Positions 44,686-64,000 of a DNA stretch of 64,000 nt are shown here, piece by piece; within the stretch, counting starts at the first letter, position 1; each line of letters begins with the position of its first letter. The stretch is from assembly GCA_002269645.1 (NCBI GenBank), contig NIVC01003264.1, positions 17,823 to 81,822 of the forward strand, read 5' to 3'. The stretch comes from Macrostomum lignano (Eukaryota). The notes beneath the pieces were generated by a model. That model was not told the DNA's origin, did not search any database, and saw nothing but the letters and a program-made list of their open reading frames with translations. Position numbers and translations under genes: made by a program.

Positions 44686-46026
44686 CTACAATTTCAAAGG
44701 CAGCAGGCTCAGAAAAAGCGTCAGGGCCAGCGAAGTCAGCAGCTGAGGCGCCTGAACGCAGAGTTGAGCTGCCCCGCTGACCTGACAGAGCTCCCGGTTG
44801 CCATCATGGCAGGTCAACTGGTGAATGGCGATGCCAAGTGGCCAACTGGCTGAGTAGCCCCTGATGCTGTCCGTGATTAAGAGCGTTTGATTATCCGCGA
44901 ACCTGTAGCCTTCGGTAAGCAGAGTTACCACGTAGACACTGTTCATGCAGAGGTACGGCTCGTACTGACCAGTGACTGGTGGATTGACGCACACTGCCCG
45001 AGCTGCTTGGGCTAGTTCGCCGACTTTGACGTTCCCTGGAACCGAGCTGGACAAGAAGCCTGTTCTATTTAACATAAAGGCAGTGTAGTAGAAGGAGCTG
45101 ATGGCCACAAAGTTGCCCACTCTGACCCCGGGCGGTTGGTGCACGGGCACGATACGCAGCGGGATGCGAGCGATCTCAGAGCACAGACGGTGCCGATCGG
45201 AGCCGGCGATGCCAGCTTCGCCTCCCACGTTGATTGAAACTGTGCCAAAGCTGAAGGTGGACCGGTAGGCCGGGTTAAGGCATGGCGAGGTGTACAGGTC
45301 CTTATTTGGTTCGCTACTGTTGTGGCCGAACATGTATAGAGCGGCCTGTGACATACCCAAGCCGAGGTAGCTGTGCTGGTGTAGGACGTAAGACTTTCCG
45401 CGAACGGTTTTGAACACCTTGCGATATTTGTCGTTCGCGTTGTCAGTTTTGGGCACAAAGGTGATCTGTGTAGAGCCGCCGCCGAGGTCCAGCATGCCGA
45501 AAGTTTCACCGCCGGGCTTATCGAAGGAATCCATGAGGAAGTTGACGGCTACCCAACCAAATTCTGCCTCTTCCTGGCCGCTGATGACGCGCACAGCACG
45601 CTTATCAGTGCTGGGCACCAGGAAGCTGGACCGACGGAGAATCTCGGCAACAGCGCGGACGACACGGTCTCGCTGTTCAGGCGTCAGCAGGCGCAGGCCA
45701 GCCGTGGCGCGCACGATGACGCTAGTTTCGGCGTGGTACTTAGTGGGAACTTTCTCAGTAGCAAATTCCATCAACGGCTTGAGGTTCTCACGAAGTCGGG
45801 GAAGTGCATTAGGAAAGGCCGATAGGCCGGGATTGACTTTCTCCTCCTCGAGGCTCTCGATGCGCAGACCAGTGGAGTGGCTGAAGTCGGTGCGGAATGA
45901 AAACACATTGATGCGGGTCCCCGTGCTGCCGGCGTCAAGCACCAGAATGTACTTCTTATTGGACGAAACAAGAGGCGCTGCTGTCGGCAGCAGGAGCAGC
46001 ATCGGCAGGATCTTCGGCAGCAGCAT
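44686..46026 (-). CDS. GDA1/CD39-family NTPDase (ENTPD5/6-like apyrase), intronless
   Basis: All five apyrase conserved regions: DAGSTGTR, ATAGLRLL, SGQEEAEFGW, DLGGGSTQ, ASWPLG. N-terminal signal peptide and hydrophobic C-terminal tail. Confidence 0.93.
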   Translation of the reverse strand: MLLPKILPMLLLLPTAAPLVSSNKKYILVLDAGSTGTRINVFSFRTDFSHSTGLRIESLEEEKVNPGLSAFPNALPRLRENLKPLMEFATEKVPTKYHAETSVIVRATAGLRLLTPEQRDRVVRAVAEILRRSSFLVPSTDKRAVRVISGQEEAEFGWVAVNFLMDSFDKPGGETFGMLDLGGGSTQITFVPKTDNANDKYRKVFKTVRGKSYVLHQHSYLGLGMSQAALYMFGHNSSEPNKDLYTSPCLNPAYRSTFSFGTVSINVGGEAGIAGSDRHRLCSEIARIPLRIVPVHQPPGVRVGNFVAISSFYYTAFMLNRTGFLSSSVPGNVKVGELAQAARAVCVNPPVTGQYEPYLCMNSVYVVTLLTEGYRFADNQTLLITDSIRGYSASWPLGIAIHQLTCHDGNRELCQVSGAAQLCVQAPQLLTSLALTLFLSLLPLKL

Positions 46027-47050
46027 CTTTGCTGTGTAGAGAAAGTTTCTTTCGAAAACGTCCAATGCAGTTGAATTTAGCTAAGCGTTCGGTACAACAT
46101 ATGAACGCATTCCATTGGCCAGGCAATTCCCTGCCACTGCGCCTCTCTGTGAATGGACCAAAGTCATTGCAAATTTCCTTGTGACATTTTCAACATTACG
46201 GTTCACATCACGGGCGTTTCTGCCTGGTTGCGCGCTGGATAAATAATGATAGTAAGCAGCAACATAAAGCTAAATTGTGCCTGCTGCGGTTGGTAGCTCA
46301 GCGATGGGAACTCGACCGAATATCTCGACCTCGGGGTCATAAATTCATAAATTAGCTGGTTAGAGGAGAGTTCCCAGTGCAGTGACAGCTATTAGAGTGG
46401 CTGATCTACGAAAGTGAGGAGCTAGATACTGCATGAGAATTGCACTTGGTCGTCAAATTGGATATCCGAATTAGAATAATCGAGTTTTAGAGCAAATGTC
46501 ACATTTTAAATTGTGCAATTTCCTGTCCAAATTTGTTATTCCGCTTTTGTTGATAACCGACACTGCTGGTATGAACGCTTGCCAAGTCATGCTTTGACGG
46601 GTCCACAAACTCTGTGAATAGACAACTGCAAACTGCAGCAAATTTGAATGCAACACACACACACACACACACACTTACACGAAAGACTTGGAAAGCCTGT
46701 TTATGGCATGAACCTCTTATGTTTATCCATGCGCTAGCCAGCCTCGCCTCTCGAGCTATAGGACTCCAACAACGAATAAAATCGGGCCGTTGTAAACACA
46801 GGCCATGGCTGCATCTGTAATACGCTATTTCCTCAGGTATGAAGCTCAAGGCACTGTCTAAGCCCATAAAACCTGGCTGCTACACTACCAAATCGGCTTG
46901 TCAAAGTAAGCCGTGGAAATAAAGTAAAATTACAGCAATCACTCCATCCTAGATTGACTTTCGCGATCGATTCAACTTCGCTACCTAATTTGTAATTTCA
47001 TAACATGTTCACCTCATCAAACGAAAAACGAGCGCACCTATGCCCCAATA

Positions 47051-53148: not shown

Positions 53149-53707
53149 AGTAGTATACGTTTTTTTGACACAAAGCCGATTTCCTTATGGCGAAATACAT
53201 AGTAAGTACAGGCCCAAAAAAATGGCAGAGTCCGAAATTTCATGTGCACGCAGTCTGAAATTCCATGTGCACGCAGTCTGAAATTCCAAGTGCACGCTAA
53301 ATATCTTTTACGCAACGTGATTATTCAGACGAATTGCATATCCACCTGTCCAAAATACAAGTAACCGATTCTAGCAATGGTGACACAAACACACTTCAAA
53401 GGATTCCATTCAAGACAAATTTACTCCAAAGCTATTCACACATTTCAAGTGTTATTGAAATATTGAAAACTTGTGAATATTATCACCCTTTTGAAGAAAG
53501 ATAGTAAATGATCTATTCTTGAGTGCCTATAGAATTTTTGCACCAACTTGAGCAGATGGTTTACAGATACTATGTCAACAACTGCGTCAACATGCTTCTT
53601 CTTTATACTATATATATATACGAACACACTGACACAGAAAATATTAAATAACTTAAACCAAGTTTACATTATACTACTTGTTCAACTATACTTACATCTT
53701 AAGTGAA

Positions 53708-54569
53708 ATGAAGCGATCACGTCAGCAGGAATTGGCCGAGCGCTATGTTAAACAAGGTAAGATAATCACCTACTCTAGTTCAGTTTTCTTTTTTAGATTG
53801 ACTGTTCGCTATAGTTTAGTTTCTAGATTGATTGTTAGTTCGGTTTCTGTTTAGACCGATCCTCTGTTTGTTCAGTCTCTAGATTGATTTTCTGCTAGTT
53901 CGGTTTCTGTTTAGACTAATACTCTGCTAGTTCAGAATTTCTAGATTGATTGTCTGCTAGTTCGGTTTCTGTTTAGACTGATTCTCTGCTAGTTCAGTTT
54001 CTATATACATTGTATACATGCACCTATACCAAATTTCCCTCATCTTATCCATTATTATAGCATTCAAGAATGGTTTCTTCACGCGGCCACCTCCAGATCA
54101 GTGCAAACGCATTTGCCACGACACCACCACATCCAATTCTGCTGCAAGAGCATCATATTCTACATCTCTCGCCAGAGTAACCTCGATTCATGTCGAGAGA
54201 CAGACAACTGAGCTAGATCGCATTTACACAAGAACTGATGTTATTCAGTCAATTAGGCAGCAATCGAACCCACGACCAACTGACCAACTGCAGTATGCAC
54301 CACCACCACCATCACCAACCAGCTACAATGACCCAACAAAGCAAACTTGCAGTAAGCCTACAAGTACCAAACCAACGACAGCAACTGAAACACCATCATC
54401 ATCAATTGCTATTTCTACCCAAGTTCAACCGCTGCTAAACTCGCCAATTATTGTACAGAAGGACATCAAGTCTGTAAAAGTCTCTCAAATGAGCACAGGC
54501 TTCTACCAAGTAGAATTAGCAAAGACCTGTAATACAACTCAAGTATTTGAATATTGGGACCTATCTTAA
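53708..54569 (+). CDS. Maverick ORF of unknown function; exons 53708-53756 and 54061-54569, 185 aa
   Basis: MKRSRQQELAERYVKQ-G|GTAAGA donor and TTATAG acceptor join in phase 1 (GCA) to the long ORF. The intron contains an approximately 61-bp tandem repeat. Confidence 0.6.
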
Positions 54570-54819
54570 AAAGACATTTTTTCTAACTCTTCATAAAATT
54601 TTGCCAGCAATGTGTCCAAGTAATTGCTCTTTTAGTATATATCAAACAAGTCTGTAATCAATAATATAATCTCTATAAATTCATTATTCTAAAAAATTCT
54701 TTCAATTTTATTCGCCATTCATTGAAATTATTTAATTCAATATAAAGTCAATATCTTGTACAGTCATCATTAAACAAAAATTATTAATCCATGCAAATAA
54801 TTTTTTTTTCATACGTTTC

Positions 54820-55520
54820 TTTAGCCATGGTCTGGCTTTTGCCTCAACAGTATGATTTAGCTGTGGTCCAGCTTTTGCCTCAACAGTATGATTTAGCTGT
54901 GGTCCAGCTTTTGCCTCAACAGTTTTTAGCCGTGGTCCGGCTTTTTTGCCTCAGCAGTATGATTTAGCTGTGGTCTAGCTTAAAACTGCATCAACAGTGA
55001 TTTAGCTATAGTCCAGGCTTAACTACCTCAACGATGATTTAGCTATAGTCAAGGCTTAACTGTCTCAACAGTAATTTTAGCTGTTGTCCAGACTTAACTG
55101 CCTCAACAGTGATTTTAGCTGTGGTCCAGGCAACTGTCTCAACAGGGATTTAGCTGTAGTCCGATTAGCTTAACTGTCCAGTTATTTAGCTGTGAGCCAA
55201 GCAGCAGCACCCGTCTCAACAGTGAGAATTAGCTATGGTCAGCTTTACCTCAACTGTGATTTGGCTGCTGTGGTCTAGCATAACTGACTCAACAGTAATT
55301 TTAGCTGTAGTCGTCCAGCTTAACCACCCGTCCAGTTTTATAACCATGGTCCAGCTTAACCACCGTCTCAACGTACAGCGATTTAGTCGTGGTCCAGCTT
55401 AACCGTCTCAACGTACAGTGATTTAGCCATGGGTCTAGTAGCAATTAACCGTATCAATAGTGATTTAGCCGTGGTCCAGCTTAACTGTCTCAACACAGTA
55501 ATTTAGCTTAGTCCAAACAG
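54820..55520. repeat. About 36-bp degenerate tandem array inside the Maverick (GCCTCAACAGTATGATTTAGCTGTGGTCCAGCTTTT)
   Basis: First copies near-identical at 36-bp spacing, diverging progressively 3'-ward. Confidence 0.88.
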
Positions 55521-56165
55521 CATTTGTGTGTCAACTGCACTGACTGCATGCGGTTATAGCAGCGGCAGTCATTATAGTCCCAACAAGCTGCGCGTCGCAG
55601 CATGATAGTGTAACTCTATATAGCTTCTGCTCAATATAGGACTGCAAAAGCTGAGTTACAACTATACCTTTTTCTGTTTGAAAAGTAACACTCTATATAT
55701 AGGTTACTCAAGCAATCTCTTGTCACCGTGCGAGCTAAAAAATTCCAACATGCAAGCAAAACTTTCAATAAATTAATTTCATAGCACCGCGTGCAGCTTA
55801 TTTTTACTCTAAAATCCAAGATTGCTAATTTTTCAAGTCGCAAAATATTTTAATTACATTCTACTTGAGAACAAAACCAATCTAATGAAGCAGCAACCAG
55901 CAGTCTTCTTATTAAACGCTTGCCATCGTGTTACTCTTGCAAATTTATAACTAGTGTGCCTAAGATTCATAAATTTTATTGTATAAAATATGAACCTACA
56001 TTTGCGTAAAATTAGACCTAATCATGCAACCCACCCTAGAAACTTATGCCACCTTTGGCACGCAACAATGTCTTAATCAGCACGCAACAATTAAATTTGT
56101 TTACTAGTTCACAAACAGCATGCAATGCTTGCTATAAATACAAGACCCGAAATGGTCAATTTTTC

Positions 56166-57417
56166 ATGAGCTCAATCATTACAGCAAAAGAAATACTATA
56201 TTCAATTGCTTGTAAGACATGGCAGCTTGCATCAAGACGGAGTCAATTGTACGCTCCGACTCGAGTCCGATTTTTTACGTTGGAGAGCAGTCTACAACCA
56301 CGACTGGTTCGTCCTGCCAGTTTCGATCTATTACGTGGAAACCATCAATCGAGTGTACAAAATGGTACCCAATTATATTGCAAACCAAGGCTCCAATGGA
56401 GCTTTTTCGTGGAATCGCAGAAAGGCCAGAGCTCGATCATCCGTCTTGCAGACACGACTCTCGCGACGCAGTAAGTGTCCAATTTCATCCAGACAGCTGC
56501 GATAAGGAACTCTTCCACTCTCTCCGGTGAGCACCATATTAAATTTATACAATTAATTTTAGGAAACTATATTAATAATTTATATAATGTTTTGCAGTCA
56601 AGTCGAAAAAGGTCTATCGGTCAAGTTGAACGAGATTCAAGATGCTCGACCCTTGGCACGACTAACAAAACCAGCTCATCAGCATGCTAACGACGTCCTC
56701 GAGTTTGTGCCTCAACAATGGCTGGCTATAAAGCCTGCTTACCCTTGTGCCACAATCAGGATCAGCAACGATCATCCACACGGGAAGGAGGTGTCCATTT
56801 CCGATTTCAAAGGTGTCAGCGGTACCTACCAAATGACAGTGCAAGCAACGAGCTTGTATTGTCCAAAAGGCTGCCTCGTCTGGCGCATTACATTCGCTGT
56901 GCGCTCTCTGACACTCATAGAATCTTCCGACAACATGTTGCAGCGCCTCGACATGTTCAAGGGAGTGCTTGCACACCTACCCGCGACCAAGTCAGCAATT
57001 AGAAGCAGGAGTCCGTCCCCAACATCTACCTGTGAGCAAGAAGAAGCAAATGAACAAAGCCTGCAGAATTCAAGCCAGGTGACACCTGCCAAGTCACCTG
57101 CAAAGCGTCGGTCTACCACCACCGTATCGAAGAAGTCGACTACATCGAATGCAGCGCCAGCCTCTATTGAACCGCCGCCTAAAAAGCAAGTTCGAAAACG
57201 CAGCGGTGCAAAACAGCAAAACAATTCTGCCGAAGCTGGTGCAGATGGCACAGACTGGGTGGAGGCTCCACCAGCAAAGATCTTGGTGAGTACACCTGCC
57301 TCTGGAACCAGGGTAGCGTCCAAGGAGACAGCATTTTTAAAGCGTGCTGCTGCGGACGCTACTACAGCTAGCGTGTCTTCATCGGACGACTCGTACAGCA
57401 GCTCTGATGATGAGTAA
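56166..57417 (+). CDS. Maverick ORF, exons 56166-56470 and 56598-57417, about 374 aa; possible OB-fold ssDNA-binding protein
   Basis: A 127-nt GTAAGT...TTTTGCAG intron joins two track ORFs in phase 2 (CA|T). Beta-rich core ending WRITFAVRSLTLIE, S/T/K-rich tail, acidic terminus SSSDDSYSSSDDE. Function is inference; an alternative ATG exists at 56046. Confidence 0.65.
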
Positions 57418-57626
57418 CAAAATTTTGACTAATTTTATCCAAGTTTTAACTAACTTATTCCACTATATTTATCAAATTTTTGGCTAGGGAAATATTATTT
57501 TTTAGGGAAAAGCTCAAAACATTTTTTGCTACTCCTTGTACGCTAACCAGGTTTTGTAATTTAATATTAGAATTTACGATAGTATAGTCATGTTTAACTT
57601 TTCTTATTATTTATTTTCCGTTTTAG

Positions 57627-58184
57627 CGACTTGTCCTATTAATAGTTACTGCGAGTCTGAAGCTGCACCCGTTTGAAAAATTTGATTTAAAGCAGACCAA
57701 ACAGAAGCTACAGACCAGAAACCGGTTTTGCAAACTATTCCTAAGCCGACCAACAATGCTAAAGACAATTTATTCAAATGCTAAAATCCAACTTTATCCA
57801 GCAGGAAAACTAACTATATATGGCTGTAAATCAAATTCTCAGATAGTCTCAGTTTTACGATTTATCAACGACACTATTAATTGTGTAGATTTTGATTCAG
57901 TAAAAATTCAGAGCAGTACCTATGTCGGCTTTATTGGTCATCTTTGGCCAAAATTCGGTTTCTCTAGTCTAAAAAGATATGCAGGCTACTATTCGAATTA
58001 TCTGGTTGGATACGATGCAGAAAATTTCCCACAAGCAGTTTCTGTTAGATCAGCATCAAAACCAAGGCTTTTTTGTAACATATTTTTTTCGAAAAAGTTT
58101 GTTATTATGGGCGTTCAAAACACTCATGAATTGAATAATATTCTTAACCATGTCAAGGATTTTTTAATCTCTGTTAATAACTAA
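57627..58184 (+). CDS. TATA-binding-protein (TBP)-fold protein, 185 aa from the splice acceptor, with no ATG before the first TBP repeat
   Basis: IVTASL...KFDLK ~ IVSTVNL..KLDLK; LYPAGKLTIYGCKS ~ IFSSGKMVCTGAKS; VKIQ ~ FKIQ; YDAENFP ~ YEPELFP; KPRLFCNIFFSKKFVIMG ~ KPRIVLLIFVSGKVVLTG. Confidence 0.82.
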   Translation, partial: RLVLLIVTASLKLHPFEKFDLKQTKQKLQTRNRFCKLFLSRPTMLKTIYSNAKIQLYPAGKLTIYGCKSNSQIVSVLRFINDTINCVDFDSVKIQSSTYVGFIGHLWPKFGFSSLKRYAGYYSNYLVGYDAENFPQAVSVRSASKPRLFCNIFFSKKFVIMGVQNTHELNNILNHVKDFLISVNN

Positions 58185-58407
58185 ACTTAACAAGTAAACA
58201 ATTGCTGTCAAATCGCAGTTGCGATGCATTCTTTTACAAACATTTTGTCTTTTTTTATTTATTTACCAATTGTTTTCTCTAATAGTAAACGTGTCAGCTA
58301 TACCTATAACTAACCAAATCATCATTTTTCTTACAGCCGCAAATGACAAACCGGATCATCTATTAATATTATGCTCGATACGCTCGTTGTCGAGCTAGGT
58401 GCACACA

Positions 58408-59145
58408 ATGCCGCGTGCACAATGCCAAATCTGCAGAAAAAAGTTCAGTAATCAAGCCGAGCTGCATGCTCACTCGCATGGTGCTTGTTTTTCACCGCAA
58501 CGATTACTGACCGGATCGCTGCAAAACCTGATCGAAAACCCACCAGATGGGTGGTCCATCGCTTTGCGCGAGTCAGCTCATCGTGGTCGGGTAAATTTTG
58601 TCGAATTTACTCCCACTCTTGAACAACAAGGCAACAGCTCTGGCGAGTTACTTCCTGGCGAGTTGATTGCGTCTTTAAGAGAACCAATATTTAAAATATT
58701 GGAAAAAATTGGCTCACCCAGTTTATTAATAAGAGTCTGCTTTCACTTGAAAGTGACACTATTTCGACCGAAAACAGCAGCAGACGACAACGATGGCTCG
58801 AGCAGCGAAGAGATCATTTCGGTCTATTTTAATACCAACATTGCGACAATATCATTTGATGAGACGATTGCAAACAGTGACATGCTGTTATCTCCCGAGG
58901 CCTACAATGACTGGTTCGCACGCGTTATTAATCAGTTGTTAATAAAAATTGACAATTTTCAATCTCGAGGTAGTAATTGGCAATATAGAGCAATCGAGCA
59001 GCTAGACTTGATGCTCTGCGTTTATCGCAAAAGCCATGCAAGCACACTGTCAACAAATACGTCCCACGGTGGTGTGGGGGCGGGCGGCGGCAGTGGTGGT
59101 GGTGGCGGCGGTGGTGGTGGTGGTGGTGGCGGCGGTGGTGGTGGT

Positions 59146-59177
<32 letters not shown>

Positions 59178-59508
59178 GCGCGGGGAGTCCGGTCCAGTCC
59201 GGTCCGGTCCAGTCCGGTCCGGTCTGGTTAAGCAGCAATCGTTTAAAGTTCCAGTCTCAATCGGTCGCAAAGCTGGAGCAGTACTGCTTCTAAAGCCGCA
59301 CAGAGCAGTTTAAAGCATCAAGACTATTTAAGAGTCTTACACAAGCGACAACTTGTGTTTTCGCGCATGCAGTCCATTCGTTCTCGAAAACAGAAAGTTT
59401 TTTTTGATGCAACAAAGAAAACTTGCACTAAGCTTCTTCGATACGAAGCGATCCTGGACAAGTTCAATTAATTCGCTACCCTTTGGACACTGGCACTTGG
59501 CTAATTAA
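58408..59508 (+). pseudogene. Protein-primed family-B DNA polymerase, internally deleted (N-terminal ZnF/terminal-protein region plus extreme C-terminus)
   Basis: C2H2-like CQICRKKF.....LHAH; ESAHRGR; YFNT; KIDNFQSRGSNW; poly-Gly; then from about 59292 in other frames LKHQDYLRVL...MQSIRSRKQKVF/LMQQRKLALSFFDTKR......SLPFGHW*. No Exo or Pol A/B/C motifs. Confidence 0.8.
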
Positions 59509-59800
59509 TTAACAATATGCTCTGATCTCTTTTGTTGTACAAAGTAATAGCATGCTATAGAAGACTGTAACCCATCATTAATTTTTTCATTGATCATTAT
59601 TTACAATAAATAAATGATACCGGCATTCGTTTAAATTATAATTTTAGCACTTTTTTGTGTTTAATTATTTGAAAAAGTATATTTTTTATAGTTAGATTCT
59701 CAAGACTAAGCTTGTGTTTGTAGTAGACGTAAATGTAGTGCTATCGTTCATGTTTCAAGAAAAAAAACTTTTTTTTAAACTTTCAGCTACAAGAATCGAC

Positions 59801-60283
59801 ATGAATCCCGAGCAGCAGCAGCAACAACAACTAACTGATCGTAAGCTTTTAGTTGAACGTCTATACGATTCGGCAACGATTCCGACCCGAAAAACTGTCG
59901 GGTCGATCGGGTATGATCTTTGCGCTGGCGTCGATGGTACCATTCCGGCCTACGAGTCCCGGAGTGTGCGAACCGGACTCAAAATTCGCTTACCGCCTGG
60001 TACCTATGGCAGGATAGCGGGACGTTCCAGCATGGCTCTGCACAGCTTATTTGTTGGCGGTGGCGTAATCGACCCCGACTATACTGGTGAAATCTGTATA
60101 GTCTTGTTTAATTACAGTCCGGAAGACTTTGAGTACTATGCCGGGCTCAGTATTGCACAACTGGTTCTGGAGCAGGCCGTGCTTGCTTCAGTCTATGTGA
60201 CTGAAGCAGACAATTCGATTCGGATGATTGAGCCGCCGACCAAGCGGCGCGGCTTTGGCGGCTTTGGCAGCACTGGCCAATAA
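59801..60283 (+). CDS. dut: Trimeric dUTPase
   Basis: All five motifs: GYDL, GRSS, GVIDPDYTGEI, IAQLV, RGFGGFGSTG. Confidence 0.96.
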   Translation: MNPEQQQQQQLTDRKLLVERLYDSATIPTRKTVGSIGYDLCAGVDGTIPAYESRSVRTGLKIRLPPGTYGRIAGRSSMALHSLFVGGGVIDPDYTGEICIVLFNYSPEDFEYYAGLSIAQLVLEQAVLASVYVTEADNSIRMIEPPTKRRGFGGFGSTGQ

Positions 60284-60398
60284 GTATAATAATAATAATA
60301 AACTGATTTTTTTCTTTGGTGATTGGTGCACTATGCGAGAGCTTTGTAAATACTATAAGCAATTTTAAAAATTTATGCCTAAAATATATGTTGTAAAA

Positions 60399-60818
60399 AT
60401 GTCTCCAGCGAAAGATCGAGGTTTTAAAAAGAAAAAGAAGAGCATTCGTAAAAAGAAGAAATCTATTAGAAAGATTAATAAAAAGCAACAAGGTTATGGT
60501 GTCGTAAATTGGTTAATTAATCATTTACCATTTGAAGCACATTTACCCGGCGGATATCAGTTTTGTGGTCCAGGTACGCAACTGCAAGCTAGGCTAGCAA
60601 AAGGACAACGAGGAATTAATCGGCTTGACAATTTGTGCATGCTTCACGACGTGGCCTATGATAAAAATTCTGACGTGCAAGAGAGGTTAAAAGCTGATAA
60701 GCTATTAGAATCTGGTGCACGAGAGATTGCCCACGATCCGTCTACTGGTTGGAAAGAAAAACTAGCTGCGAAGTTGGTTACCAAGGTTATGCAAGTTAAG
60801 CAACGCTTTGGTGCTTGA
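60399..60818 (+). CDS. Parvovirus-VP1u-like phospholipase A2 virion protein with basic N-terminus
   Basis: Ca-loop YQFCGPGT, catalytic HDVAY, ADKLL; K/R-rich N-terminus. Alternative ATG at 60375. Confidence 0.9.
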   Translation: MSPAKDRGFKKKKKSIRKKKKSIRKINKKQQGYGVVNWLINHLPFEAHLPGGYQFCGPGTQLQARLAKGQRGINRLDNLCMLHDVAYDKNSDVQERLKADKLLESGAREIAHDPSTGWKEKLAAKLVTKVMQVKQRFGA

Positions 60819-60820
60819 AA

Positions 60821-61510
60821 ATGCAGCAGCCATACAATATGCAACTAGCTCACGATTCTACATTTATTATTGCTGGACCTTCAAACTCGGGTAAAACTGA
60901 ATGGACGTTGCGTTTGTTGACTGAACGAAAAGAATTATTTGATAAAAAACCGTGCCGTCTTGTTTGGTGCCATGGATCAAGTTTGAAACCAGACGATCAA
61001 CAACGAATTAGAACATGCTGGCAAAAAAGCGGTCTTGACCCTATTGTTTTTGTACCCGAATTCACACCACAGATGATTAATCGTTTTTTACCACACGATT
61101 TGGTTGTTGTTGACGACTTGCAAAGCGAGATTGCTAAGTTGCCAGAATTTACTAGTATGTTTACAAAGCATGCGCATCATATCCCTTTGACTTGTCTGTA
61201 CCTTTGTCAAGGTCTTTTTAACAAGTCTGATCCAGAAGCACGCATGCGAAGTTTATCAGCTAGTTATATTTGTCTAACTCGTAGTGTGCGCGATCGAACC
61301 ACAGTTGAACATCTCGGTCGACAAATGTATCCGCGTAATAGTAGGTTTCTAGTGAATGTGTATGAAGACGCAACAAATAACAAACCTTTTTCATATTTAT
61401 TCATTGACCTGCGGCAAGTGACACCAGATTTTTTACGATTGAGAACAGGAATATTTTCTGGTGATGAACAAGTTGTCTATACTCGTGAATGTGATGCAAA
61501 GTTTGTGTAA
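60821..61510 (+). CDS. A32-like (FtsK-HerA) genome-packaging ATPase
   Basis: Walker A GPSNSGKT, Walker B VVVDD, FTKHAHH...YLCQGLF, PFSYLFIDL....PD.LRLRTGIF. Confidence 0.95.
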   Translation: MQQPYNMQLAHDSTFIIAGPSNSGKTEWTLRLLTERKELFDKKPCRLVWCHGSSLKPDDQQRIRTCWQKSGLDPIVFVPEFTPQMINRFLPHDLVVVDDLQSEIAKLPEFTSMFTKHAHHIPLTCLYLCQGLFNKSDPEARMRSLSASYICLTRSVRDRTTVEHLGRQMYPRNSRFLVNVYEDATNNKPFSYLFIDLRQVTPDFLRLRTGIFSGDEQVVYTRECDAKFV

Positions 61511-61567
61511 TATTATTATAAGCAAATTATAAACTGTTGTCAATATTAGTTTGTGTTTTATTTCAAA

Positions 61568-62557
61568 ATGAGTTTTTACGTTTTTTTGCCGTCAAACGAT
61601 ATCAGTTACGAAACCAACTCGCCTAATGAATTTCGAGTGCGACTAACTGAACCAATAAATTTATTGAACGGATTCTTCGAGGTTGCACTAGTTGAATTAC
61701 TGTGCCATGGAGCAATTACGACGCCAAATGCTCATCGTGAGCGTCGATTTGAAGTTCCATATTTTGCGGACATTGACTCAATAATACGATTAAAGAAAAA
61801 CTATTGGGGTCGTGTTTGGGCAGAGGCAGACTTGGATGCTTACGTTTCCTGGCAACCGTCTGGTACAGATGAAAAATTTGCCTGGCTTTTACGAAATTCA
61901 GGCGAAAAAACTATTGGATTAGAACTACCAGTTACATTTATGGACGCTTTCAAATTTGACTCTTGGAAGAAACTTTCTGGACTTGTCTCGGAAAAATTAT
62001 CAAAACCTGCCGCTGGTAGTGTACAACCACCGGATGGTTCATACTTGGATTTGATAAAAAGTCTCGACAATACTCTAGCGCTAGTACCTGAGAACTATTA
62101 TGTTTTTTATTGTGTTCTATCGCCTGGTGAAGCTATACGACTTGTTTCGCATGGAGACTATCTTCGAAAAACGGAAGGAGAAGTGTACATCAAAGTACAC
62201 CAATATTGGTTGAGAAATCGTGTTTGGCGCATTAACAAAACCTACTTGGATGCTGTGCTACCTTCTCCGATGCCTAGTAAAACGGTTTACATGTACTGTT
62301 ACACAGATATAATCGAGTATCAAGCAGTGGGAAGTACATCAGTACCGTTGCTTCGAGTTGTGGAACTCCAACAAAAGAAAAACGGAGAACTTATACGCGA
62401 TAGCAGTGCATTGCAAACACCCTACTACTTGAAAACAAATCGACAACAAATTCACGAGATTTCGATTCGACTATCGGACCAGCGCGGAAAACCGTTTAAT
62501 TTTGATCCGGGAGCACACGTTGTTGTCGTACTGCATTTTAAACATAGGTCGGACTAA
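61568..62557 (+). CDS. Minor capsid protein (penton, single jelly roll)
   Basis: FYVFLPSN...N.PNEF.VRL..PI.L...FEVALVE N-terminus; YCYTDIIEYQAVG...VPLLRVV...Y......I.I.L.DQ.G.PF.F...VVVVLHFK C-terminus. Confidence 0.9.
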   Translation: MSFYVFLPSNDISYETNSPNEFRVRLTEPINLLNGFFEVALVELLCHGAITTPNAHRERRFEVPYFADIDSIIRLKKNYWGRVWAEADLDAYVSWQPSGTDEKFAWLLRNSGEKTIGLELPVTFMDAFKFDSWKKLSGLVSEKLSKPAAGSVQPPDGSYLDLIKSLDNTLALVPENYYVFYCVLSPGEAIRLVSHGDYLRKTEGEVYIKVHQYWLRNRVWRINKTYLDAVLPSPMPSKTVYMYCYTDIIEYQAVGSTSVPLLRVVELQQKKNGELIRDSSALQTPYYLKTNRQQIHEISIRLSDQRGKPFNFDPGAHVVVVLHFKHRSD

Positions 62558-62613
62558 TTTATAAGCAAAGATTAATTGTGTAATAGAAAATTTTGTGAAT
62601 TTGTTTTGTAAGA

Positions 62614-63018
62614 ATGAGCGAACTAACAGAAAAAGGAAAACAAAATGCTCGCTCATTGTGTCAGTGTGCTTTTTTACTACAAATTGTTTATCGGCTAAAG
62701 CATCCAAAGCAGAGAAAAAGTTTTTTACAAACACTTTCAGAGTCGGAGATACGATGTCTAGTAGACTTTCTGTTTAATATTATTAGTGGACGTATTAAAA
62801 TTAGTAACTGTAACAAAAGACGACTTGAGAAGCATCGCAGATATATACGCCAGCTTTTGGAACAGAAGACTCCAATTACTGCAAAAAGGAAAATACTTGT
62901 CCAACACGGAGGATTTTTACCTTTTTTGGCTCCAATTATTGCCGCTCTACCTGCTATAAGCACTGCGCTTGGGATAACGTCTGGAGTAGTTGGTACCGCG
63001 CGGGAGCAGCGAATTTAA
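62614..63018 (+). CDS. Small basic Maverick virion protein with an adenovirus pX-like hydrophobic C-terminus
   Basis: KQRK.FL.......I.CL.....NI..G.I......K..L.KH...IR.L...K.....KRKILVQHGGFLPFLAPIIAALPAI. Confidence 0.8.
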   Translation: MSELTEKGKQNARSLCQCAFLLQIVYRLKHPKQRKSFLQTLSESEIRCLVDFLFNIISGRIKISNCNKRRLEKHRRYIRQLLEQKTPITAKRKILVQHGGFLPFLAPIIAALPAISTALGITSGVVGTAREQRI

Positions 63019-63051
63019 TACGATCAATTCAACGAAAGTAGTAGGAATATA

Positions 63052-63717
63052 ATGCGAACTAACGAGAGTAGTAGTTTTCAACGAATGTATCTAGTACCTG
63101 AATCTGTGTATCAATCTGCATGTCAAGGTGCAGAGCAAGGATCGTCACCAACTGCTGAGACACCTCGAAAAACTGAAGTTTTAGACGCACCGCAAGATGC
63201 TCTGGCAAAAAATATGGTGGAAATGAGAGACCAAATGGATAACTTGGACAAGGAAATGGAAAAGGAGCCAAATTACACAGCTCAATTGAAACGAAGCAGA
63301 TTGGAAGACAAACTTTTAAAATTGCGCAAAGTCTATCGCACTGGAGACGAGGACAATCTGTCACTTGTTCGCAAAGGGACTACTGTAAGAAGTTCATATG
63401 CCAGCGAATCAAGGGAAATTCCTAAAGTTTTTTTACCACGTTTCGAAGCTCTCGCTCAAAACCTATTTTCGGACATGGACAAGAATGCAGAACCAATGCT
63501 GGCTAATTTGACTGATGCCGAGATACAAGATCTCATGGAATATGTTGTTCGAGACAGACCGCTTAAGCGACACGAGACTCAACCGCCTAGTGGACTAAAA
63601 ACATTTTTAGACTTTCTTCGAAAACGTGGAATCGCAGCAAACCAAATCGGGCGTCATGTACGAAACGAGCTAATGTCTGCTCCAAAACTGTTGCAAAGGA
63701 GGATCTTATCTGTTTGA
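63052..63717 (+). CDS. Conserved Maverick/adintovirus hypothetical protein
   Basis: RMYLVPE N-terminal motif, LDKEM, and I.DL...V.R.R.....P.G...FL..L....I....IG C-terminal motif recurrent in Maverick ORFs. Confidence 0.7.
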   Translation: MRTNESSSFQRMYLVPESVYQSACQGAEQGSSPTAETPRKTEVLDAPQDALAKNMVEMRDQMDNLDKEMEKEPNYTAQLKRSRLEDKLLKLRKVYRTGDEDNLSLVRKGTTVRSSYASESREIPKVFLPRFEALAQNLFSDMDKNAEPMLANLTDAEIQDLMEYVVRDRPLKRHETQPPSGLKTFLDFLRKRGIAANQIGRHVRNELMSAPKLLQRRILSV

Positions 63718-64000
63718 AAATTATCAAACACTGAATTAAGTTGTTTTAAAATTACAGATTACGTTTTAACAAAATTGATTCGAGCACTATAAGCTTTTTA
63801 AAAAGGTTAATTTTTTGTTTATGAAAAATATATAGTTTAATAAGACAAACCATGTCATCTATCTTCCAAAAACTTTTGATTCGTCTCTGTGAGTTTTTTG
63901 CATAAAATCTGAATGTGTGCCGTTTCTGGGAAAGGACAGCAACGAGGATACTGACGGAGATTCGATCGAGGCTTCGTTCTTTTGTTGCAACTGTCAAACG

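What the first reader, a model, noticed from the sequence alone, without database searches (positions are those of the whole stretch)
57600..57760. The viral TBP gene has no start codon and may borrow the host spliced-leader AUG
Seen: TBP homology begins right after a U-rich tract ending TTTTAG (57626). That TAG is also the in-frame stop, the next codon is in phase 0, and the first in-frame ATG (57756) would delete about 43 aa of repeat 1. The upstream gene's possible donor (GA|GTAAC, 57414) is phase 2 and would hit a stop. Established: flatworm spliced leaders end in AUG, which can act as the initiator Met. Inference: trans-splicing would give M-RLVLLIV..., a complete TBP core, making the viral gene dependent on host SL trans-splicing. 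This relies on the host being a flatworm, which is itself inferred.
Basis: partly seen in the sequence, partly recalled or inferred. Interest (0 to 1): 0.8.

Follow-up and report, generated by a model that had tools for sequence, protein, structure and literature searches.

The report
Viral TBP exon joins upstream gene

Summary
In detail: a TBP-like frame (57627-58184) of a Maverick/Polinton begins right after a splice acceptor, and its first ATG lies 43 codons in. The host premise holds too: its SL genes end ATG|GTAAG. That donor sits at the same position in 6 of 6 lineages only 24-35% identical, against 1 of 14 other Val-Ser pairs. The frame is therefore most likely an alternative last exon of the upstream gene, which has its own TATA box, ATG and an RNA-supported first intron. 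That gene likely encodes an ssDNA-binding protein, so one splice choice would swap its acidic tail for a TBP-like domain (375 or 517 aa). The fusion is not shown: contigs from runs guessed to be RNA, and 10 of 10 database gene models, show only the short form. One contig carries the host SL at the next gene's acceptor (58337), where the SL AUG is out of frame. A free TBP started by the SL AUG stays possible but is not required. The scan noted this TBP and its splicing before, on other copies in this genome.

The parts
53149..64000 (+). Left part of a ~19-kb Maverick/Polinton copy (begins AGTAGT; runs off the window and contig end)
   Evidence: sister copy on C593 has ~110-bp inverted ends and a 6-bp target duplication
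56133..56138 (+). TATAAA box of the upstream gene
   Evidence: sequence; a TATA-like box lies about 60-100 nt before the ATG in 6 of 6 lineages
56219..56526 (+). Coding exon 1 with the gene's own ATG
   Evidence: Met1 invariant in 5 of 5 aligned lineages; UniRef model P0121 starts here
56527..56597 (+). Intron 1 (71 nt, GT-AG, phase 2)
   Evidence: joint in 3 of 4 runs
56598..57285 (+). Exon 2: rest of the likely ssDNA-binding fold plus a low-complexity basic linker
57286..57291 (+).
57286..57417 (+). 43-codon Ser/acidic tail of the short form (inside predicted intron 2)
   Evidence: open for 42-50 codons in 6 of 6 lineages; present in 5 of 5 UniRef representatives
57418..57626 (+). AT-rich spacer, branch-point-like words, pyrimidine tract and acceptor TAG
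57627..58184 (+). TBP-like exon, two repeats, 185 codons; first ATG at 57756
58335..58366 (+). Acceptor that received the host SL in one contig; the SL AUG would open a 10-codon frame ending at 58366
   Evidence: table 7 (run X7); SL sequence in PMC8629364 and L098-L101
58408..59313 (+). Zinc-finger-like 5' part of the polymerase gene; the frame ends after a GGY repeat and no polymerase domain follows in this family
   Evidence: the C297 copy has the same N-terminus followed by PF03175

Best explanation
The TBP-like frame is likely an alternative last exon of the upstream Maverick gene, which would be joined by ordinary cis-splicing from the conserved donor at 57286 to the acceptor at 57626, so that its start codon would be the viral ATG at 56219. 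Shown: the gene has its own TATA box, ATG and a spliced first intron; donor and acceptor are both phase 0 and conserved across lineages; the short form (375 aa, acidic tail) is what contigs and gene models show. Inferred: the N-terminal domain is a viral ssDNA-binding (SSB-type) protein. Predicted: use of the internal donor replaces the acidic tail with the TBP-like domain (517 aa by exon arithmetic). Inferred: the switch is regulated and off in the sampled worms, and the TBP-like domain recognises the TATAAG box in front of the particle genes, so the splice choice would act as an early-to-late switch. Some SL trans-splicing at the same acceptor may coexist as a minor route.
For: Donor K-x-L|GTRAG at the homologous position in 16 of 16 loci (the script selected on K-x-L, and alignment A3 confirms the position) and in 32 of 32 close copies that retain the acceptor, of 34 examined. 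In six lineages the Val codon is always GTR and the Ser codon always AGY; other Val-Ser pairs read GTRAG in 1 of 14 cases; chance 9e-5 for five lineages, or 0.016 on the Val third position alone. It is an invariant island (K227, L229, V230, S231) in an otherwise poorly aligned linker. Exon 2 plus tail holds only 1-2 GTRAG per lineage and this is the only phase-0 one in each. Intron length varies from 259 to 619 nt in all three phases, as an intron's may. Exon sum 1554 nt is a multiple of three. GT[G/A]AG is the top donor motif in this host (PMC8629364), and that paper cites that an acceptor with an upstream cis donor is not mainly trans-spliced. SSB-like reading: half-domain model hits phage ssDNA-binding domains and NCLDV proteins (best E 8e-3); Atlas first hit 0.92 with 210 shared features, NCLDV clusters, with DUF2738 (51% of one cluster) and Pox_I3 (12%) lower down; acidic tails. 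TATAAG: 8 of 9 matches in L092 are on the + strand, most shortly before an ORF; none lies in the spacer before the TBP exon.
Against: The fusion itself is not shown. Contigs bridge the donor unspliced in 5 of 8 runs (X1, X2, X7, X9, X11) and the acceptor unspliced in 3 of 8 (X1, X2, X6) by the tool's 31-letter rule (table 8 hid 21 records; X1 shows no spliced intron 1 and may be DNA). The 10 UniRef models are 313-378 aa and the 5 read all end in the short tail. The tail is itself conserved (a G-x-R-V-x-x-K motif in 4 of 6 lineages), so K-x-L-V-S could partly be a protein motif; Ser codon class is inherited (the other invariant Ser is TCN in 6 of 6), so the stronger p-value overstates the case. 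The total TATAAG count is not above chance (13 of 200 shuffles reach 9). The SSB call rests on weak scores and a half-domain model of pLDDT 62.
Confidence: 0.67

Rival explanations
1. One reading: the primary transcript is resolved like an operon; the short upstream mRNA is cleaved in the spacer and the host SL is trans-spliced to 57627, its AUG starting a free ~186-aa TBP core. This is the main or only route.
For: Host SL ends in ATG. SL was seen on this element family at 58337. Phase 0 fits SL as well as the cis donor. Spacers of 139-490 nt fit operon distances in this host (PMC8629364: peak ~100 bp, threshold 1 kb); AATAAA lies 71-75 nt before the acceptor in 2 of 6 lineages. Stand-alone 190-aa TBP-like proteins that start at the first strand exist in metagenomes (P0005, P0006). 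Flatworm acceptors often take both cis and trans partners (PMC12582326 section 11); the SL AUG is in frame in 28% of trans-spliced S. mansoni transcripts (PMC9851317 passages).
Against: It does not explain the conserved phase-0 donor. None of ten poly(A)-like hexamers occurs in the window family's spacer. At the one SL site seen, the SL AUG is out of frame with the viral ORF. Operon-resolving acceptors show the least cis-splicing in parasitic flatworms, so a maintained upstream donor is unexpected.
Confidence: 0.18
2. Translation starts at the internal Met44 (57756) or at a near-cognate codon on an unspliced or internally started RNA.
For: Met44 is invariant in 6 of 6 lineages; contigs cross the acceptor unspliced in 3 of 8 runs.
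Against: Residues 1-43 hold five invariant positions and a strand, helix and strand modelled with block pLDDT 73-95. The same Met sits inside stand-alone relatives that start further upstream (P0006, P0010), so it looks structural. The acceptor would be unexplained.
Confidence: 0.05
3. The exon was once spliced but is now silent in this polymerase-less family and is only carried along in recent copies.
For: This family has no polymerase domain after the zinc-finger ORF and lacks the dNK gene of other lineages; most copies are 99-100% identical, so intact frames prove little.
Against: The frame and both splice signals are intact in the ~97% subfamily too (L024-L026), and the domain is as conserved here as in the other lineages.
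Confidence: 0.1

Closest known systems
SL-AUG-initiated ORFs of flatworms (Cheng et al. 2006, seen only as cited in PMC9851317 and PMC12582326)
   Same: AUG-terminated SL in the host; phase-0 acceptor before an ATG-less domain start.
   Different: A conserved in-frame cis donor and a viral ATG lie upstream; no SL junction is shown at this site.
SL trans-splicing onto transposon transcripts in Hydra (PMC12220107, passages: about 30% of TE long reads carry SL)
   Same: A mobile element's RNA receives the host SL (58337, one contig).
   Different: Here on the polymerase gene of a Maverick in a flatworm; the passages read do not single out Mavericks.
Beta/gamma-herpesvirus viral TBP mimic, KSHV ORF24 (PMC12529657, abstract)
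   Same: Divergent TBP-like domain inside a larger viral protein, linked to a non-standard TATA-like box.
   Different: Unrelated virus group; here the partner domain is likely an SSB and the fusion would be made by alternative splicing; no function tested.
Cellular TBP family (PF00352) and TBP-like genes in MELD viruses (figure legend of PMC8502044)
   Same: Two-repeat TBP fold.
   Different: About 20% identical to cellular TBP; several DNA-contact residues differ; encoded as an exon.
NCLDV ssDNA-binding proteins (DUF2738 and Pox_I3 clusters; their link to T7 gp2.5-type SSBs is recalled, the paper was not held)
   Same: Language-model features, partial fold and acidic C-terminal tail.
   Different: Split by an intron and optionally fused to a TBP-like domain; no sequence-level match.

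Membership tests
Maverick/Polinton | Terminal inverted repeats starting AGTAGT and a 6-bp target duplication | tested here: met
   C593 copy: ~110-bp inverted ends and the same 6 bp on both flanks, span 19.3 kb; flanks of the C297 copy did not match; the window copy's right end is off the contig
Maverick/Polinton | Retroviral-type integrase | tested here: met
   PF00665 E 4.5e-8 plus chromodomain in L092:6536-7696
Maverick/Polinton | Protein-primed PolB | tested here: inconclusive
   PF03175 E 5e-12 in the related C297 copy; the window's family keeps only the 5' part, so it looks like a non-autonomous derivative
Maverick/Polinton | Capsid, packaging ATPase and protease genes | tested here: inconclusive
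   Adenovirus protease E 0.019 (below cut-off), PLA2-like E 3.6e-9, protein X-like E 7.5e-7; capsid and ATPase were assigned by position and Walker A motif only (no Pfam or PDB hit)
TBP family | Two-repeat saddle fold | tested here: met
   repeat orientation poorly modelled (pTM 0.62, TM 0.33-0.44)
TBP family | Four intercalating Phe and two Asn (roles recalled) | tested here: not met
   against fetched TBP P0007, both Phe of repeat 2 are kept in 6 of 6 lineages, one Phe of repeat 1 is Tyr, the other aligns uncertainly, and both Asn are replaced: TBP-like, not canonical
TBP family | Binds a TATA-type box | not testable with these tools
   needs a binding assay
SL-AUG-initiated ORF | Host SL ends in AUG | tested here: met
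   4 of 4 array loci read ATG|GTAAG; 4 other loci of the 58 matches lack the donor and look like retrocopies
SL-AUG-initiated ORF | Acceptor without an upstream cis donor | tested here: not met
   conserved phase-0 donor at 57286
SL-AUG-initiated ORF | SL junction at the acceptor in RNA | tested here: inconclusive
   contig data show presence, not absence
Viral SSB (NCLDV / phage type) | OB-type ssDNA-binding fold | tested here: inconclusive
   weak viral-library hits (E 8e-3) and Atlas 0.92; only the exon-2 half was folded
Viral SSB (NCLDV / phage type) | Acidic C-terminal tail | tested here: met
   last 20 residues hold 3-7 D/E and 0-1 K/R in 6 of 6 lineages

The most novel reading that the evidence does not exclude
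A Maverick uses one gene and one acceptor as a switch: unspliced it makes an SSB with an acidic tail for replication; cis-spliced it makes an SSB-TBP fusion (SSB-TBP-kinase in one lineage) that ties recognition of the TATAAG late box to replicating viral DNA; and the same acceptor can also take the host SL, whose AUG yields a free mini-TBP. The element would be a DNA virus whose polycistronic RNA is resolved by host trans-splicing.
Probability: 0.2. Interest if true: 0.85.

Novelty: new variant of a known kind. Interest (0 to 1): 0.55.

Why it matters
How Mavericks order their gene expression is poorly known. A splice choice that swaps an SSB tail for a TBP-like domain is a concrete early-to-late mechanism that can be tested by RT-PCR in a laboratory flatworm, and the SL-capped contig shows these elements use the host's trans-splicing. 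The striking headline, a viral gene that cannot start without the host's AUG, is not needed to explain the sequence.

Tried and rejected
RNA: the look-up of sequencing runs listed no holder on record as RNA; 8 of the 14 holders guessed to be RNA were laid, all as contigs. No 57285-57627 joint and no SL loose end at 57627 appeared in these 8; contigs drop rare forms, so this is not evidence of absence for either route. Contigs starting at 57615 in X7 and X8 are better explained by a copy variant just upstream than by splicing. Other cis routes rejected by frame (sequence): intron-1 donor and the 57414 donor are phase 2 and meet a stop; the ATG at 57590 is out of frame and absent from L024 and L029. 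Word-based protein searches found no TBP-like record, near or longer; a metagenome locus scan found none; the four close environmental relatives (P0001-P0004) came without DNA context. Upstream domain: no informative Pfam, PHROGs or PDB match; VIA best Z 3.3 and Foldseek PDB no match under E 0.001. Ten further degraded loci gave the donor in 5 and the acceptor in 4; they were left out of the lineage count, as were L027 and L028. No intron-less copy was seen among the loci fetched. Literature: searches (listings and abstract starts) showed no paper on Macrostomum Mavericks, spliced Maverick TBP or SL on Maverick mRNA; a recalled paper on NCLDV SSB families was not held. Supplements were not read.

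Full report
Observation. The frame is TBP-like by Pfam, by profile search of the PDB and by predicted fold. Residues 1-43 carry a strand, a helix and a strand of repeat 1 and five invariant positions, so a start upstream of 57627 is needed.

Setting. The region lies in a Maverick/Polinton that begins at 53149. A sister copy spans 19.3 kb between ~110-bp inverted ends with a 6-bp target duplication and encodes an rve integrase. The genome search returned 40 DNA matches of 40 candidates scored and 83 protein matches, which include five more lineages at 40-46% identity. The window's family keeps only the 5' part of the polymerase gene; a related lineage has the PolB domain. The host is Macrostomum lignano by UniRef label. 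The SL sequence printed in PMC8629364 (parts 1-3 of 4 of the text read) matches 58 places in G000; four array loci read ATG|GTAAG.

The missed donor. Inside the upstream ORF lies TTG|GTGAGT at 57286, the only full-consensus donor between 56598 and 57560, in phase 0. It recurs at K-x-L|V-S in 16 of 16 loci and in 32 of 32 close copies that keep the acceptor, of 34 examined. Across six lineages whose exon 2 is 24-35% identical to the window's, Val is always GTR and Ser always AGY, while other Val-Ser pairs give GTRAG in 1 of 14 cases. Counting five lineages, chance is 9e-5, or 0.016 if only the Val third position is used; the second figure is the safer one because Ser codon class is inherited. 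The upstream gene has a TATA box and ATG in every lineage, and its first intron is spliced in 3 of 4 runs. Exons of 308, 688 and 558 nt sum to an open 517-aa product; the unspliced form is 375 aa.

Two products. The 42-50 codons after the donor stay open, GC-rich and acidic in 6 of 6 lineages, so the short form is real. It is also the only form seen: contigs bridge the donor unspliced in 5 of 8 runs and the acceptor in 3 of 8, and the 10 UniRef models are of short-form length, the 5 read ending in the tail. The fusion is thus a prediction from conserved signals, probably rare or stage-limited.

What the upstream domain is. A model of the exon-2 half (pLDDT 62) hits phage ssDNA-binding domains and NCLDV proteins weakly; the Atlas places the full protein nearest NCLDV clusters (0.92), with DUF2738 and Pox_I3 clusters below (one source of evidence). 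With the acidic tail this makes an SSB likely but unproven. That these families are SSBs is recalled; the paper could not be read.

SL trans-splicing on the element. One contig (run X7, 1 of 8 runs) has 23 letters of the SL joined at 58336/58337, the acceptor before the polymerase 5' ORF; its far end matches the ~97% subfamily. There the SL AUG opens a 10-codon frame and the viral ORF has its own ATG at 58408. So the element's RNA can be trans-spliced, as transposon RNAs are in Hydra (PMC12220107, passages), but the one documented case does not borrow the AUG. Because flatworm acceptors often take both kinds of partner (PMC12582326, section 11 and passages) and phase 0 suits both, a free SL-started TBP remains possible.

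Mechanism. Shown: promoter-like box, ATG, intron 1, short form, conserved donor and acceptor, SL at 58337. Predicted: the cis junction 57285-57627. Inferred: SSB function, regulation of the splice choice, and a role of the TBP-like domain at the TATAAG box; 8 of 9 such words in L092 are on the coding strand, most shortly before ORFs, though their number alone is not above chance. The late-promoter idea came from earlier notes of this scan and was tested only this far. KSHV ORF24 (PMC12529657, abstract) is the closest working analogy.

Verdict. Observation confirmed; interpretation partly supported; best explanation alternative cis-splicing (0.67), SL AUG as main route 0.18. New variant of a known kind; interest 0.55.

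Noticed in passing
L075:7440-equivalent frame (L089:7440-8846, minus), also L076, L084: In one lineage the TBP-like frame runs on into a deoxynucleoside kinase domain (PF01712 E 6.7e-24); in four other lineages a dNK-like ORF follows or overlaps it as a separate frame, and the window's family has none.
   Followed up: partly
window 58337-59313: The SL-receiving transcript starts the polymerase gene, which in this family ends after a long GGY repeat; the family has many near-identical copies, so it may be mobilised by polymerase-bearing relatives.
   Followed up: partly
window 59777-59803: The dUTPase ATG (59801) is preceded by a T-rich tract and TTTCAG (59781-59786), a candidate outron acceptor; an SL AUG here would be out of frame. 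Not covered by the RNA stretches laid.
   Followed up: no
L094-L097: Four genomic matches to the SL end lack the GTAAG donor and run into other sequence; they look like retrocopies of trans-spliced mRNAs. True SL genes sit in arrays spaced about 11.4 kb.
   Followed up: no
window 58298-58312 and L075 spacer: The same word AGCTATACCTATAACT lies about 40 nt before the SL acceptor in the window and just after the short-form stop in L075/L076; meaning unknown.
   Followed up: no
window 56170-56505 and 56040-56474: All three frames over exon 1 are open for 100 codons or more in the window's family; only the frame with the ATG at 56219 is conserved in other lineages.
   Followed up: yes
window 54820-55520: Tandem repeat near the element's left end; the C593 copy carries a duplicated left end with an N gap, possibly an assembly artefact.
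   Followed up: no
window 44686-46080 (minus): A 464-codon uninterrupted GDA1/CD39 apyrase frame among host genes left of the element.
   Followed up: no
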